A stretch of 64,000 nucleotides of DNA, taken from the IMG/VR virus record IMGVR_UViG_2579778941_000001; one strand, given 5' to 3'. The notes below the pieces were generated by a model. It did not search any database. It saw nothing but the letters and a program-made list of their open reading frames with translations, and had not been told where the DNA came from. The position numbers and the translations under genes are program-made. Source of the stretch: a virus (taxonomy: Duplodnaviria > Heunggongvirae > Uroviricota > Caudoviricetes). Positions 31,091 through 32,306 of this stretch are shown one piece after another; the stretch's first letter is position 1, and each line of letters begins with the position of its first letter.

Positions 31091-31171
31091 ACAACAGGTA
31101 AGGGCGCTGGTGTGATTAACCAGATGAACGAGAAGGGGCCATCTGTTGGTCAGCGTCCTTTCCTGTTGCGT
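31091..31171 (+). repeat. Hairpin element A (conserved ACAGGTAAGGGC stem family)
   Basis: 5-prime arm ACAACAGGTAAGGGCGCTG pairs with 3-prime arm CAGCGTCCTTTCCTGTTGCGT. Confidence 0.6.
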
Positions 31172-31373
31172 CTTCTTTTCAGCGTAACAGCGGTGCTTAA
31201 CAGCACTTTGGGTACAGTTCCACGAATTTACGGGTATATCCCGTCATGCTGAAAGCGCTAATCACGCTGGAAGCCAGGGTTATGCATCCCCTGTTACCGA
31301 ATTGCAGCCAGGGCGCGGTGCGCCGAAAAGCATACGGAGGTGGAAGCCCTCGCCGGAGACGTACCCGGCAAGT

Positions 31374-31449
31374 GATGGTGTAGCTCAGCGGTTAGAGCGG
31401 TTGACTGTTAATCAACGGGTCGATGGTTCAAATCCATCCACCATCGCCA
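31374..31449 (+). tRNA. trnA: tRNA-Asn (anticodon GUU)
   Basis: Cloverleaf folds by hand: acceptor GATGGTG/CACCATC, anticodon loop CTGTTAA, T-arm GATGG-TTCAAAT-CCATC, 3-prime GCCA. Confidence 0.85.
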
Positions 31450-31451
31450 AT

Positions 31452-31527
31452 GCCGGTTTAGCTCAGTTGGTAGAGCGCCTGCCTTGTAAGCAGGATGTCA
31501 GCGGTTCGAGTCCGTTAATCGGCACCA
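31452..31527 (+). tRNA. trnT: tRNA-Thr (anticodon UGU)
   Basis: Acceptor GCCGGTT/AATCGGC, anticodon loop CTTGTAA, T-loop TTCGAGT, 3-prime ACCA. Confidence 0.85.
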
Positions 31528-31529
31528 GC

Positions 31530-31615
31530 ACAACAGGTAAGGGTATTTTGCGACGTCGGAGATCGCCGAGCTTGGCAGAGGGTTCGAATCCCTACGAAGT
31601 ACCCTTACCGTTGTG
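31530..31615 (+). repeat. Hairpin element B with internal tRNA T-arm-like hairpin
   Basis: Perfect 16-bp stem ACAACAGGTAAGGGTA / TACCCTTACCGTTGTG; insert contains GGGTTCGAATCCC. Confidence 0.65.
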
Positions 31616-31745
31616 ATGAATGCGCAGGCTGATGCGCGAAAGACATTGCAGCTATTGCGGAAAAGAGCTGTTCGGCGGGGCAATTAAACGCCCGTGAGAG
31701 TCTGAAATAACCGCAAGCCGGAGATCAGCACCGGTCATCACAACA

Positions 31746-31812
31746 CAACAGGTAAGGGCATTCTCCCTTATGGGGCTTGGCTTAAATGCATCGAGTGCTC
31801 TTACCGTTGTGA
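31746..31812 (+). repeat. Hairpin element C
   Basis: Stem ACAACAGGTAAGGGCATTCTC / GAGTGCTCTTACCGTTGTG with two G-U-compatible substitutions. Confidence 0.6.
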
Positions 31813-31952
31813 TGAAGTGCAGCTCTTTGAAGCAACCAGAAGATAAGCATCTGGCTTCACAACATAAACCGCAGGAACGACCAATAAACGGTAGTCCGTA
31901 TGGAGAACACCCCGTTGAGGAAGAGGCCTGGCCGGAACCGTAACCGGCACTA

Positions 31953-32045
31953 CAACGTTGAGAACACTGGCGTAACGGGGTCATATCCCAATCTACGAAT
32001 AAATGTTGCGTTGCAGCGTGACAACCAGTGTTCTCAACATTGTGG
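31953..32045 (+). repeat. Hairpin element D with nested inner hairpin
   Basis: Stem CAACGTTGAGAACACTGG / CCAGTGTTCTCAACATTG; inner CGTAACGGGGTCATATCCCAATCTACG. Confidence 0.6.
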
Positions 32046-32229
32046 TGAATGCACAGGCTGATGTGCCGCAACTACAGTAGTGCGCGCTTTGCGGGGCTTG
32101 CTACAACCCTGTGTCGGAGTTCAGCACCGACCATCACAGTTTGATTCTCTGGCATGAGCATAACGCTGAAATAAGTCCAGCTTGGTGCGGCCCGATCACC
32201 CGCCGTTAGCTCCACGAAACGGAGCACGT

Positions 32230-32306
32230 AACAGGTAAGAGCATTCTCCTGTAACGGGTTCATATCCCAATCTACAGGTCCACCAAGAATGCTCTTTCCG
32301 TTGCGG
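32230..32306 (+). repeat. Hairpin element E with nested inner hairpin
   Basis: Stem AACAGGTAAGAGCATTCT / AGAATGCTCTTTCCGTT; inner CCTGTAACGGGTTCATATCCCAATCTACAGG followed by TCCACCA. Confidence 0.6.

What the first reader, a model, noticed from the sequence alone, without database searches (positions are those of the whole stretch)
31091..32306. Array of five conserved-stem hairpin elements interleaved with the phage tRNA-Asn/Thr genes in an ORF-free 1.6 kb block
Between the dmt terminator (30908) and the next protein-coding gene (32456) there is no ORF with a plausible start or ribosome-binding site; the listed ORFs there overlap the tRNAs and are spurious. Instead there are five elements (A 31091-31171, B 31530-31615, C 31746-31812, D 31953-32045, E 32230-32306). 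Each has a 16-21 nt 5-prime arm with core ACAGGTAAGRGC and a complementary 3-prime arm with core GCYCTTACCGTTG, enclosing a variable 30-55 nt insert. Inserts of B, D and E contain a GGG-TTCRWAT-CCC mini-hairpin resembling a tRNA T-arm, and D and E share the inner hairpin CGTAACGGG(G/T)TCATATCCCAATCTAC. Additional conserved flanks occur upstream of C and E (GGAG-TCAGCACCG-CATCACA) and downstream of the units (GATGAATGC). Stem substitutions are mostly G-U-compatible on the tRNA strand (C has two wobbles, A has one), but D and E also contain C-A or U-U mismatches, so RNA-level structure is suggested rather than proven. By analogy with stable RNAs co-encoded in phage tRNA clusters and large ornate ncRNAs found beside phage tRNAs, this could be a family of structured RNAs processed with the tRNAs, or a tRNA-mimic or decoy module. 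I do not recall such an array in descriptions of P1; from uncertain memory the reference phage carries protein-coding genes in this neighbourhood.
Basis: partly seen in the sequence, partly recalled or inferred. Interest (0 to 1): 0.8.

Follow-up and report, generated by a model that had tools for sequence, protein, structure and literature searches.

The report
Stalked structured RNAs beside phage tRNAs
The five hairpins are real, conserved RNA structures on the tRNA strand of a P1-like phage; they belong to an undescribed family of long-stalk RNAs carrying tRNA-like inserts, widespread in enterobacterial phages and sitting next to a previously unnoticed tmRNA-like element.

Summary
The window is a P1-like phage. 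The finding lies in the leader of the C1-repressed ban operon. All five hairpins exist at the stated coordinates and fold far better than shuffles, better on the + strand.

They belong to a family not in Rfam 15. Its plan is a conserved base (CACAAC/GUUGUG plus a bulged A), a covarying 13-20 bp stalk and a conserved insert ("cargo"). Relatives occur in lambdoid prophages, a Uetakevirus, and the tRNA clusters of virulent FelixO1-like phages. Stalk changes are compensatory or G-U on the + strand only (82 G-U against 6 A-C cells), so this is RNA structure.

Two details need correcting. D's arms lack the stated core. The D/E mini-hairpin is an anticodon-arm look-alike (CAU), not a T arm; the lambdoid version copies 14 nt of E. 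coli initiator tRNA. Only B has T- and D-arm-like parts.

The spacers are homologues of the published sRNA-17 and of STnc100. The P1 genes plp and upl annotated here on the minus strand are probably not genes.

Just upstream I found a tmRNA-like module: resume signal, ten-codon tag ANDDLMMVAA, stop codon in a hairpin loop, and a covarying pseudoknot. It is conserved in all these phage groups and is nearly always followed by such a stalk hairpin.

Function is untested. Best guess: excised stable RNAs displaying tRNA parts.

The parts
30673..30718 (+). ban promoter and bivalent C1 operator (Oban/Op72), the start of the transcription unit that holds everything below
   Evidence: Identical to the annotated P1 operator ATTGCTCTAATAAATTTATTAGTGTAAT.
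30813..30914 (+). dicF-like region ending in an intrinsic terminator (30882-30908)
   Evidence: P1 annotation transferred by alignment; terminator scan.
30911..31056 (+). tmRNA-like coding module. UAAAU resume context, then GCA at 30970. Ten-codon tag ORF 30970-30999 (ANDDLMMVAA) with stop 31000-31002 in the loop of hairpin 30996-31008. Pseudoknot: stem 1 is 31016-31021 with 31033-38; stem 2 is 31027-30 with 31047-50.
31057..31092 (+). small conserved hairpin between the tmRNA-like module and hairpin A
   Evidence: columns 142-160, with compensatory changes.
31088..31172 (+). stalk hairpin A (insert type A)
   Evidence: z -5.5. Model R1 scores 25.2 bits, E 9e-4. C-G to U-A compensatory change in phage D6.
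31177..31254 (+). further structured module closed by UUUCAGC/GCUGAAA, containing ACGGGUAUAUCCCGU
   Evidence: I17, D14; z -2.9. Weakly supported.
31374..31449 (+). tRNA-Asn (GUU)
31452..31527 (+). tRNA-Thr (UGU)
31529..31615 (+). stalk hairpin B. Its insert has a D-arm-like hairpin (GCGA-CGUCGGAGA-UCGC) and a T arm (AGGG-UUCGAAU-CCCU).
   Evidence: z -5.7. Homologue with compensatory arm changes in Enterobacter phage BUCT554. 91 IMG/VR contigs carry it.
31610..31742 (+). sRNA unit S1, a homologue (98%) of the first ~137 nt of sRNA-17 of E. coli K1 but without its terminator
31744..31811 (+). stalk hairpin C (insert CCCUUAUGGGGCUUGGCUUAAAUGCA)
   Evidence: z -5.7. Covariation. Insert conserved in Klebsiella lambdoid phages and in Ounavirinae tRNA clusters.
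31806..31947 (+). spacer S2: a short sRNA-17-like unit (31806-31865) plus a linker ending in hairpin CCGGAACCGUAACCGG
   Evidence: (D1, D2).
31948..32047 (+). stalk hairpin D: a three-way junction carrying a CAU anticodon-arm-like hairpin and a second hairpin
   Evidence: z -6.2. R1 scores 30.6 bits, E 3e-5.
32039..32225 (+). spacer S3: an sRNA-17/STnc100-like unit (32039-32140) plus a linker ending in hairpin CUCCACGAAACGGAG
32227..32305 (+). stalk hairpin E, carrying a CAU anticodon-arm-like hairpin
   Evidence: z -6.0. R1 scores 33.3 bits, E 5e-6.
32300..32432 (+). sRNA unit S4, STnc100-like, ending in a U tract
   Evidence: Rfam STnc100 at 37.8 bits, E 7e-6, below the gathering score of 47; z -3.2.

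Best explanation
The five elements are small structured RNAs. They are made as parts of one long non-coding leader transcript of the P1 ban operon, which is repressed by C1 and switched on in lytic growth. That leader is a chain of independently folding modules: a DicF-like RNA, a tmRNA-like coding module, two tRNAs, four sRNA-17/STnc100-like units and the five 'stalk' hairpins.

Each stalk hairpin has a sequence-conserved base (CACAAC/GUUGUG with a bulged A), a 13-20 bp double-stranded stalk whose sequence drifts while pairing is kept, and a conserved insert. I infer two things. First, the stalk is a processing and stability scaffold: a duplex of 20 bp or more is the natural substrate of RNase III, and the mapped 5' end of the neighbouring sRNA-17 lies in the base of such a stalk. 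Second, the insert is the working part.

The inserts look like isolated pieces of tRNA. D, E and their lambdoid relatives show a CAU anticodon stem-loop; in the lambdoid form it is a 14-nt copy of the E. coli initiator tRNA anticodon arm with its three G-C pairs. B shows a D arm plus a T arm, the tRNA elbow.

The most likely job is to present these tRNA parts to a tRNA-binding partner early in lytic growth. That could mean acting as a decoy or competitor for a tRNA-directed nuclease (for the CAU type, a VapC-class enzyme that cuts initiator tRNA) or for a translation or ribosome-rescue factor. It could also mean working together with the adjacent tmRNA-like RNA.

Shown: structure, strand, family, conservation and context. 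Inferred: co-transcription in this phage, excision and function.
For: Structure and strand.
- Folding z-scores are -5.5 to -6.2 on the + strand, weaker on the minus strand.
- In 23 lambdoid family members, 95.2% of cells pair, against 40-50% when the partner column is slid. Ten pairs show double changes, reached by 0 of 500 shuffles.
- G-U cells number 82, against 6 A-C cells.
- The C type pairs at 97.5%. Its one-sided changes are nearly all C-G to U-G or A-U to G-U.

Family.
- A model built without any P1 sequence finds E, D, A and C, and nothing else in the 64 kb.
- Rfam 15 has no match.

Insert conservation with drifting stalks.
- The C insert is identical in a Klebsiella lambdoid phage and near-identical in Ounavirinae, where the stalk is AT-rich. 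There it lies on the tRNA strand just 5' of tRNA-Arg.
- The B insert is conserved in a Uetakevirus with compensatory arm changes.
- The CAU motif sits on P2 stems that covary: CCGGA/UCCGG, CCUGUA/UACAGG, CUGAAUA/UAUUCAG, CUGUCUG/CGGGCAG.
- All 80 loci collected through the downstream protein YfdP have the hairpin. The loop UCAUAA is invariant, and 76 of 80 have the full motif.

tRNA likeness.
- metZ reads CGUCGGGCUCAUAACCCGA; the mEp460 element reads CGACGGGCUCAUAACCCAA.

Context.
- The ban promoter and operator are identical to P1's.
- There is no internal promoter and no terminator between 30908 and 32428.
- The P7 record states that Op(ban) controls the tRNAs.
- P1vir RNA-seq detects reads over 'upl'.

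Processing hint.
- The full-length primers for sRNA-17 put its 5' end at CGUUGUGGUGAAUGC, inside the base of the 3' arm of an upstream stalk hairpin. Deleting it raised the downstream gene yfdP about 95-fold.

Modularity.
- P1-like genomes differ by whole modules, with junctions in the shared arms. Hairpins stay intact except in two D/E chimeras.
Against: - There are no transcript-end, abundance or stability data for any of the five hairpins, so excision and stability are inferred.
- A terminator at 30882-30908 lies between the promoter and the array, so expression needs read-through. ban itself lies further downstream and is known to be expressed from this promoter.
- The tRNA likeness is partial. 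In D and E only U33, CAU and A37 plus three G-C pairs are kept. The inserts of A and C resemble no tRNA part that I could name.
- ARAGORN does not call any of them tRNA-like, except a weak call over B at an 80% threshold.
- The motif-based collections were conditioned on the motif. The YfdP-anchored sample is unbiased for the motif but consists of close relatives.
- Nothing links the elements to any nuclease, initiation factor or SmpB.
- Variation of B and of the P1-like copies is small, so their stems rest mainly on one or two distant homologues.
Confidence: 0.65

Rival explanations
1. The hairpins are only punctuation. They are RNase III or other processing sites and end-protecting stems that separate and stabilise the tRNAs, sRNAs and downstream mRNA. 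The inserts have no function of their own.
For: The stems are long and near-perfect. The hairpins sit exactly at module borders. The 5' end of sRNA-17 falls in a stalk base. Many different inserts sit on one stalk type.
Against: Inserts are the best-conserved part across distant phages while the stalks drift. The CAU loop is invariant in 80 of 80 loci anchored on the neighbouring gene. Internal helices of the inserts covary.
Confidence: 0.2
2. The stalk hairpins are domains of, or partners for, the adjacent tmRNA-like RNA. For example, they could be its missing tRNA-like or 3' domain, so that the whole is a phage ribosome-rescue or tagging device, or a decoy for the host's.
For: In P1-like, lambdoid and Ounavirinae lineages the tag module is followed at a fixed distance by a stalk hairpin. 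In Ounavirinae, module plus hairpin fill the space between a promoter and tRNA-Arg. In L531 the following hairpin has the D plus T arm insert.
Against: The insert after the module differs between lineages: A, C, B and others. B, C, D and E in the window are far from the module. Stalk hairpins occur without the module, for example upstream of yfdP. No acceptor end, G3:U70 pair or CCA was found. ARAGORN and Rfam see no tRNA-like domain.
Confidence: 0.15
3. The block encodes the minus-strand proteins Plp and Upl, as annotated in P1 and RCS47. The hairpins are incidental.
For: The annotations exist. One minus-strand frame is open for 139 plus 109 codons with a single stop.
Against: - RefSeq's pipeline annotates nothing here in plasmids 100% identical, and P7 and D6 lack the genes.
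- There is no Pfam family.
- Of 21 substitutions, 15 are non-synonymous and 6 synonymous, spread 6/8/7 over the codon positions.
- The ORFs are cut and rejoined by module loss in P1 itself; plp overlaps trnT.
- The upl ATG is the complement of the CAU loop and has no clear ribosome-binding site.
- The G-U bias shows selection on the opposite strand.
Confidence: 0.03
4. They are decaying remnants of tRNA genes, or scars of recombination between phage tRNA clusters, kept by hitch-hiking and without function.
For: They contain tRNA-like fragments. tRNA genes (Ser, Tyr) occupy equivalent slots in P7, D6 and Ro157c2. Modules shuffle through the shared arms.
Against: Compensatory and wobble-only change keeps 95-97% pairing across lineages as distant as P1, lambdoid phages and FelixO1-like phages. 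About half of complete E. coli genomes carry family members.
Confidence: 0.05
5. They act at the DNA level, as cruciforms or recombination sites comparable to integron attC sites or REP/ERIC repeats.
For: They are imperfect inverted repeats with an extra-helical base, flank exchangeable cassettes, and hold the recombination junctions.
Against: There is a strong strand asymmetry: 82 G-U against 6 A-C cells. There is no associated integrase, and the arms do not fit the attC core sites. Recombination at repeats is expected anyway.
Confidence: 0.03

Closest known systems
T4 stable RNAs C and D (species 1 and 2, rnaC/rnaD) in the T4 tRNA cluster
   Same: They are small structured RNAs encoded on the tRNA strand next to phage tRNA genes. 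rnaC ends in a canonical T arm (CCGGGUUCGAAUCCCGG), as hairpin B does. Their function is still unknown (my knowledge).
   Different: There is no sequence or model similarity. The T4 RNAs have no 20-bp stalk with a conserved base, and rnaD shows no significant fold (z -0.8). Here there are several insert types on one scaffold and a much wider distribution.
sRNA-17 (E. coli K1 RS218) and the STnc100 / PasD prophage sRNA family
   Same: The spacers between the hairpins are homologues. S1 is 98% identical to the body of sRNA-17. S4 matches Rfam STnc100 at E 7e-6. All fold with the closing stem GUUGUGRUG/CAYCACAAC. sRNA-17 has been seen by RACE and northern blot (PMC7719688). STnc100 and PasD are described as related prophage sRNAs (bioRxiv 10.64898/2026.05.13.724894).
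   Different: These are the neighbours, not the hairpins. Neither paper describes the stalk hairpins. S1-S3 lack their own terminators.
tmRNA, especially two-piece (permuted) tmRNA
   Same: This applies to the adjacent module only. It has the resume context UAAAU|GCA and a ten-codon tag starting AND and ending AA, like ANDENYALAA. Its stop codon lies in the loop of a helix-5-like hairpin, followed by a pseudoknot. The Rfam tmRNA_permuted and beta_tmRNA models align over exactly this part.
   Different: No tRNA-like domain, acceptor end or CCA was found. The module is about 150 nt, against 260-430 nt. All scores are below the gathering thresholds. ARAGORN is silent at default settings.
YrlA (bacterial Y RNA)
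   Same: It has a long terminal stem carrying a tRNA-like module with T and D arms, and is also found in phages (my knowledge of Chen et al. 2014).
   Different: The Rfam YrlA model does not hit any hairpin. Its only hit, 25.6 bits against a gathering score of 69, overlaps the true tRNAs. The order of the arms differs (normal, not permuted). No rsr/rtc genes lie nearby.
Phage-encoded tRNAs that counter tRNA-targeting defences, and the TLD-only tmRNA fragment of mycobacteriophage DS6A
   Same: The same idea: a phage supplies a tRNA, or a piece of a tRNA-like RNA, that may replace a target or titrate a host factor (DS6A is discussed in PMC4131195).
   Different: Those are complete tRNAs or a complete tRNA-like domain. 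Here isolated arms sit on a foreign stalk, and no target is known.

Membership tests
tRNA (Rfam RF00005 / ARAGORN) | Cloverleaf with acceptor stem, D, anticodon and T arms, scoring above threshold | tested here: not met
   Only Asn, Thr and Met(CAT) pass. None of A-E is called at default or -ps settings. A weak 'tRNA-Tyr' call over trnT plus B appears only at -ps80.
Stalk-hairpin family defined here (model R1) | Conserved base CACAAC/GUUGUG, long stalk, insert; significant score with a model built from lambdoid members only | tested here: met
   E 33.3 bits (E 5e-6), D 30.6 (3e-5), A 25.2 (9e-4), C 18.3 (0.07). B is not detected by R1 but shares the arms by eye and by repeat family D3/D4.
Stalk-hairpin family defined here | Pairing maintained by compensatory or wobble changes on the + strand | tested here: met
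   Individual compensations for A (D6), B (BUCT554) and C (Klebsiella phage and Sf16).
YrlA / Y RNA (RF02553) | Covariance-model match at or above the gathering score; Ro-binding stem; permuted tRNA-like domain | tested here: not met
   There is no hit on any hairpin. The only hit is 25.6 bits (gathering score 69), and it lies over the tRNA genes.
STnc100 (RF02076) | Covariance-model match at or above the gathering score of 47 | tested here: inconclusive
   S4 (32302-32422) scores 37.8 bits, E 7e-6, below the gathering score. The hairpins themselves do not match.
sRNA-17 | Sequence identity to the RACE-defined 193-nt RNA | tested here: met
   This holds for spacer S1 only. It is 98% identical over about 137 nt to mEp460 2501-2637, which the published full-length primers delimit. 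The terminator part is absent in the window.
tmRNA (adjacent module, 30911-31056) | Resume context and tag reading frame ending in a ClpXP-type C terminus | tested here: met
   UAAAU|GCA. The ten-codon ORFs are ANDDLMMVAA, ANDDVVLMAA, ANDDLMLMAA, ANDNVFLAVA, ANDEQFLAVA, ANEEMYLAVA and others. Length and ends are conserved while the codons differ; the +1 frame is not conserved.
tmRNA (adjacent module) | Stop codon in helix 5 and flanking pseudoknot(s) | tested here: met
   RNAalifold places the stop in a loop, with compensatory pairs. Stem 2 of the pseudoknot shows six complementary sequence sets.
tmRNA (adjacent module) | tRNA-like domain: acceptor stem with G3:U70, T arm, 3' CCA; detection by ARAGORN or Rfam at threshold | tested here: not met
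   ARAGORN finds none at default or -ps. At -ps70 it reports the tag, but with inconsistent domains. Rfam scores of 18-26 bits are below the gathering score of 47. My candidate acceptor strand turned out to be pseudoknot stem 2.
Protein-coding genes plp / upl | Conserved ORF, codon-position bias, homologues, called by independent annotation | tested here: not met
Integron attC-type recombination site | R''/L''-L'/R' core sites (RYYYAAC ... GTTRRRY), adjacent integrase, no strand-specific RNA signature | tested here: not met
   By eye the arms do not fit the core consensus. No integrase lies nearby. The G-U bias indicates RNA.
RNase III / RNase P substrate | Cleavage in vivo or in vitro at defined positions | not testable with these tools
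   There is only indirect support: stalk length, and the sRNA-17 5' end lying in a stalk base.

The most novel reading that the evidence does not exclude
Temperate and virulent enterobacterial phages (P1-like, lambdoid, FelixO1-like) carry a shared, unannotated RNA toolkit aimed at the host's tRNA and ribosome-rescue machinery. It has two parts. One is a minimal tmRNA-like RNA that encodes its own ten-residue degradation tag but has no recognisable tRNA-like domain. The other is a set of stalked RNAs that display isolated tRNA parts: an initiator-type CAU anticodon arm and a D/T elbow. Together they would either re-programme or block trans-translation, or act as decoys for tRNA-cleaving defence nucleases such as VapC-type initiator-tRNA nucleases.
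Probability: 0.2. Interest if true: 0.9.

Novelty: new variant of a known kind. Interest (0 to 1): 0.8.

Why it matters
P1 and lambdoid phages are among the best-studied genomes in biology. Even so, 1.6 kb of P1 appears to be mis-annotated as two proteins, while it actually encodes a chain of conserved structured RNAs.

The stalk-plus-insert design is present in roughly half of complete E. coli genomes through prophages and P1-like plasmids. It also occurs in therapeutic-type virulent phages (FelixO1 relatives). That makes it a common, unstudied class of phage RNA.

The inserts copy recognisable parts of tRNA, and the array sits next to tRNA genes and a tmRNA-like tag-coding RNA. This gives a concrete, testable handle on two questions:
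- why phages carry tRNA clusters together with 'stable RNAs of unknown function', an open question since the T4 species 1 and 2 RNAs;
- how phages deal with tRNA-targeting defences and with ribosome rescue.

Practically, it also argues for removing plp and upl from P1 annotations, and for new Rfam families.

Tried and rejected
1. T-arm reading of D and E. Rejected: the loop is NUCAUAN and the lambdoid relative is a copy of the initiator tRNA anticodon arm.
2. Scan of species-representative genomes with ACGGGNTNNNANCCCAATC, to see whether other 'anticodons' occur. Badly designed: 14 specified bases in 596 Gb give thousands of chance hits.
3. Alignment A4. I had padded three Ounavirinae sequences with 3 nt to force the register, so it was discarded and is not used for any count. 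A5 holds real sequences only. The Ounavirinae stalks are described from the raw sequence and fold.
4. The idea that P1 GGGUUUU / AAAAUCG-A-CC is an alanine-type acceptor stem of a mini-tmRNA. Refuted by covariation, which shows that the 3' stretch is pseudoknot stem 2.
5. The idea that the upstream hairpin is the acceptor piece of a permuted tmRNA. Not supported: the module is preceded by a terminator in P1 and by a promoter in Ounavirinae.
6. YrlA, attC and REP/ERIC resemblances. Not met (by eye).
7. K-12 as a source of transcript data. The CPS-53 copy of yfdP lacks the hairpin.
8. The RS218 genome record and the P1 genome paper (PMC523184) are not held.
9. Literature searches for initiator-tRNA mimics, phage tRNA decoys, P1 transcriptomes and tmRNA in Ounavirinae/Punavirus found no description of these elements.
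10. Relaxed ARAGORN, including mitochondrial armless mode, on the hairpins gave only unstable calls.
11. The MAFFT alignment of all insert types together (A1) put D's arms out of register, so the model was built from the lambdoid subset only.
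Full report
**What the window is.**
The stretch 30900-32460 is 99.8% identical to P1-like phages (vB_EcoM-813R1, RCS47). It is 98.7% identical to P1 itself over the 87% of it that P1 shares. In the P1 record the dmt stop is followed by the promoters P1ban/P2ban and the bivalent C1 operator Oban. After these come a 'dicF-like region', trnA (Asn), trnT (Thr), then plp and upl on the minus strand, and further on the genes leading to ban. The window has the identical operator at 30689-30716. 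The same tRNAs lie at 31374-31449 and 31452-31527. The finding therefore lies in the leader of a C1-repressed, + strand transcription unit. The scan finds no promoter-like site inside 30600-32500. The only clear terminator is at 30882-30908, the end of the dicF-like region, not 'the dmt terminator'.

**The observation.**
All five hairpins are present. As + strand RNA they fold at -33 to -44 kcal/mol, with z-scores of -5.5 to -6.2 and 0 of 200 shuffles as stable. As minus-strand RNA they are weaker, with z-scores of -3.7 to -4.6. They share a plan:
- a six-base-pair base, CACAAC/GUUGUG (GUAAC/GUUGC in E);
- one bulged nucleotide on the 5' side;
- a further 13-17 bp of stalk;
- an insert of 30-55 nt.

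D and E share a 25-nt inner motif.

**A family beyond P1.**
The inner motif of D and E led to more than 100 phage contigs. Most carry an element in lambdoid prophages between the repressor gene and yfdP. It has a 23-bp stalk, a three-way junction, a helix P2 bearing CGGGCUCAUAACCC, and a variable hairpin P3. About half of complete E. coli genomes (2800 of 5426) match this neighbourhood. RefSeq annotates nothing there, and Rfam 15 finds nothing.

On 23 distinct lambdoid members, 95.2% of cells pair, against 40-50% when the partner is slid by 1-3 columns. Ten pairs have changes on both sides, a level reached by none of 500 shuffles. G-U cells number 82, against 6 A-C cells. This is the signature of an RNA read from the + strand, not of a DNA cruciform or a minus-strand RNA.

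A covariance model built from these lambdoid sequences alone finds E (33.3 bits), D (30.6), A (25.2) and C (18.3) in the window, and nothing else in 64 kb. In 80 loci collected through the YfdP protein, independently of the motif, every one has the hairpin and the loop UCAUAA never varies. These are close relatives, however.

**Inserts are conserved; stalks drift.**
- Hairpin C's insert is unchanged in a Klebsiella lambdoid phage, where it follows Q, the late terminator and a tRNA-Thr. Six or more arm positions have changed there with pairing kept.
- The same insert occurs in FelixO1/Moogle-type virulent phages inside the tRNA cluster, on the tRNA strand, ending three bases before tRNA-Arg. 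Its stalk there is AT-rich.
- On 19 distinct C-type sequences, 97.5% of cells pair. The one-sided changes are almost all to G-U on the + strand.
- Hairpin B has a homologue in an Enterobacter Uetakevirus with compensatory arm changes.
- P2 helices under the CAU motif covary freely.

So selection acts on pairing in the stalk and on sequence in the insert.

**What the inserts look like.**
The D/E mini-hairpin is not a T arm. It is three G-C pairs closing a seven-base loop, N-U-C-A-U-A-N: U33, anticodon CAU, A37. In the lambdoid form, 14 consecutive bases are those of the E. coli initiator tRNA anticodon arm (metZ CGUCGGGCUCAUAACCCGA against CGACGGGCUCAUAACCCAA). B does have a T arm (AGGG-UUCGAAU-CCCU), preceded by a D-arm-like hairpin with GG in its loop, and no anticodon arm. 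I could not match the inserts of A and C to any tRNA part. ARAGORN does not accept any of them as a tRNA.

**The neighbours.**
The B-C spacer is 98% identical to a stretch of phage mEp460. There it forms the body of sRNA-17, a 193-nt RNA of E. coli K1 defined by RACE and northern blot. Its published full-length primers delimit mEp460 2502-2696. Its 5' end, CGUUGUGG..., lies in the base of the 3' arm of an upstream stalk hairpin. Its deletion raised the downstream yfdP about 95-fold, as expected if a terminator was removed.

The last unit (32302-32422) matches Rfam STnc100 at E 7e-6, below the gathering score. STnc100 and PasD are described as related prophage sRNAs. S1, part of S2, S3 and S4 all fold with a closing stem GUUGUGRUG/CAYCACAAC, so they share their terminal bases with the stalk bases.

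**Are plp and upl real?** I think not.
- RefSeq's pipeline calls no gene in plasmids 100% identical over 31620-32440.
- P7 and D6 do not have the genes.
- There is no Pfam match.
- Among P1-like variants, 21 substitutions give 15 non-synonymous and 6 synonymous changes, spread 6/8/7 over the codon positions.
- P1-like genomes differ by loss or gain of whole RNA modules, which cuts these ORFs.
- plp overlaps trnT.
- The upl start codon is simply the complement of the CAU loop of hairpin E.

P1vir RNA-seq does report reads over 'upl'. That fits + strand leader transcription but does not prove it.

**Modularity.**
Junctions between P1-like variants fall in the shared arms. P1 itself lacks S1 and C, through recombination between the 3' arms of B and C. 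P7 lacks B and S1. One contig goes from tRNA-Thr straight to E. SJ46 and one other carry a D/E chimera joined through the shared CAU motif, which no longer forms a stalk. Other relatives have a tRNA-Ser or tRNA-Tyr in equivalent slots.

**A second, unexpected element.**
While reading the Moogle-type locus I saw that the region between the dicF-like terminator and hairpin A (30911-31056) is conserved there. It looks like the coding part of a tmRNA.
- After UAAAU comes GCA AAC GAU GAU CUG AUG AUG GUA GCG GCC UAA, which reads ANDDLMMVAA (E. coli ssrA: ANDENYALAA).
- The stop codon lies in the loop of a small hairpin.
- P1-like, several lambdoid and Ounavirinae lineages all have ten-codon frames here: ANDDVVLMAA, ANDDLMLMAA, ANDNVFLAVA, ANDEQFLAVA, ANEEMYLAVA, ANDTQYLAVA and others. 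The nucleotides differ, but the length, the AN(D/E) start and the A/V-A end are conserved. The overlapping AUG frame is not conserved.
- RNAalifold supports the stop-in-loop helix and the next hairpin with compensatory pairs.
- The loop of that next hairpin pairs with a stretch about 8 nt downstream, in six different complementary versions. This is an H-type pseudoknot.
- Rfam's permuted and beta two-piece tmRNA models align to exactly the resume and tag part, at 18-26 bits, below threshold.
- ARAGORN reports the resume consensus and these tags only at a 70% threshold, and then with inconsistent tRNA-like domains.

I found no acceptor stem, G3:U70 pair or CCA, and my one candidate was refuted by the pseudoknot. 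A 2014 census of 543 RefSeq phages listed tmRNA only in mycobacteriophages, Bacillus phage G and DS6A. I found no paper describing this element.

In almost every lineage the module is followed about 80 nt after the stop by a stalk hairpin, with many different inserts. In one lineage the insert is the D plus T arm type.

**How it most likely works.**
Shown:
- these are RNA structures on the tRNA strand;
- they form a conserved, modular family with functional inserts;
- they lie in a transcribed leader among tRNAs and sRNA-like units.

Inferred:
- the leader is made from Pban after C1 is lost;
- host RNases cut it into tRNAs, sRNAs and stalk RNAs;
- the duplex stalks serve as cleavage sites and as protective ends;
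- the inserts present tRNA parts to some tRNA-binding partner.

For the CAU type, the one enterobacterial activity I know that recognises exactly this arm is the VapC/MvpT class of toxins, which cut initiator tRNA in the anticodon loop (my knowledge; reviewed in papers found). The 30S P site with IF3, MetRS and TilS are alternatives. A link to the tmRNA-like RNA is possible but unproven. I give 0.65 to the general picture (excised structured RNAs with functional inserts), about 0.25 to mimicry or decoy as the function, and much less to any specific target.

**Comparison with known things, and novelty.**
The closest analogues are the T4 species 1 and 2 RNAs, YrlA-type tRNA-like RNAs, and phage tRNAs that counter tRNA-directed defences. 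None is a family match. The spacers belong to known sRNA families, but the hairpins do not belong to any. I rate it a new variant of a known kind: phage structured RNAs co-encoded with tRNAs. The adjacent tmRNA-like module is a separate lead of at least equal interest.

Noticed in passing
window 30911-31056 (tag ORF 30970-31002); also L335 915-1095, L131 1323-1490, L531 5540-5350 (minus strand): A tmRNA-like coding module. It has the UAAAU|GCA resume context, a ten-codon tag (ANDDLMMVAA in P1; ANDDVVLMAA, ANDDLMLMAA, ANDNVFLAVA, ANDEQFLAVA, ANEEMYLAVA and others elsewhere), a stop codon in a hairpin loop, and a covarying pseudoknot. No tRNA-like domain was found. It is not annotated in P1, and I could not find it described.
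   Followed up: partly
window 31610-31742, 31806-31865, 32039-32140, 32300-32432: The 'spacers' are four paralogous sRNA-like units closed by GUUGUGRUG/CAYCACAAC. S1 is the homologue of the published sRNA-17 (E. coli K1). S4 is STnc100-like. The sRNA-17 5' end mapped by RACE lies in the base of a stalk hairpin, which suggests processing rather than a primary start.
   Followed up: partly
window 31652-32071 and 32072-32401, minus strand (P1 genes plp, upl): The P1 and RCS47 annotations of plp ('putative lipoprotein') and upl are probably spurious. The upl ATG is the reverse complement of the CAU loop of hairpin E. RefSeq's pipeline calls nothing here. Substitutions show no coding signature.
   Followed up: yes
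window 32391-32424: A 34-nt stretch at the 3' end of the STnc100-like unit matches a feature annotated as CRISPR, at 100%, in E. coli chromosome NZ_LR025101.1. This is presumably a spacer acquired from a P1-like element.
   Followed up: no
L335 780-830; L004 2380-2420: In lambdoid phages the same module set (stalk hairpin, tag module, stalk hairpin, sRNA-17-like unit, sometimes tRNA-Thr) sits just after the late terminator tR', downstream of Q. This is the place where Stx phages carry tRNA genes. The set therefore occupies both the early-left and the late leaders of lambdoid phages.
   Followed up: partly
L131 1290-1325 (Shigella phage Sf16): A consensus-like promoter (TTGACA, 17 nt, TAAGAT) lies directly upstream of the tag module, inside the tRNA cluster between tRNA-Ile and tRNA-Arg. 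The module plus its stalk hairpin therefore look like one transcription and processing unit of about 230 nt.
   Followed up: no
window 30780-30815 compared with P1 (L001 1382-1415): Upstream of the dicF-like part, the window and P1 differ by a block of changes that keep a hairpin (GGCGGGG...CCCCCUC against GGCUGGG...CCCAGAC). This may be another structured element in the leader.
   Followed up: no
L585 (about 90-200 nt after its tag ORF): Another stalk hairpin insert contains GAGUCAUAAUCGA. This resembles the anticodon arm of the phage's own tRNA(CAU) at window 33528-33603 (CGACUCAUAAUCGC), so CAU-loop displays come in more than one version.
   Followed up: no
window 32456-33500: Where P1 has tciA/B/C, this phage has a 78-aa membrane-type ORF and a 275-aa SPFH/Band 7 protein (Pfam E 1e-30), followed by tRNA(CAT). 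This is a cargo swap downstream of the RNA array.
   Followed up: no
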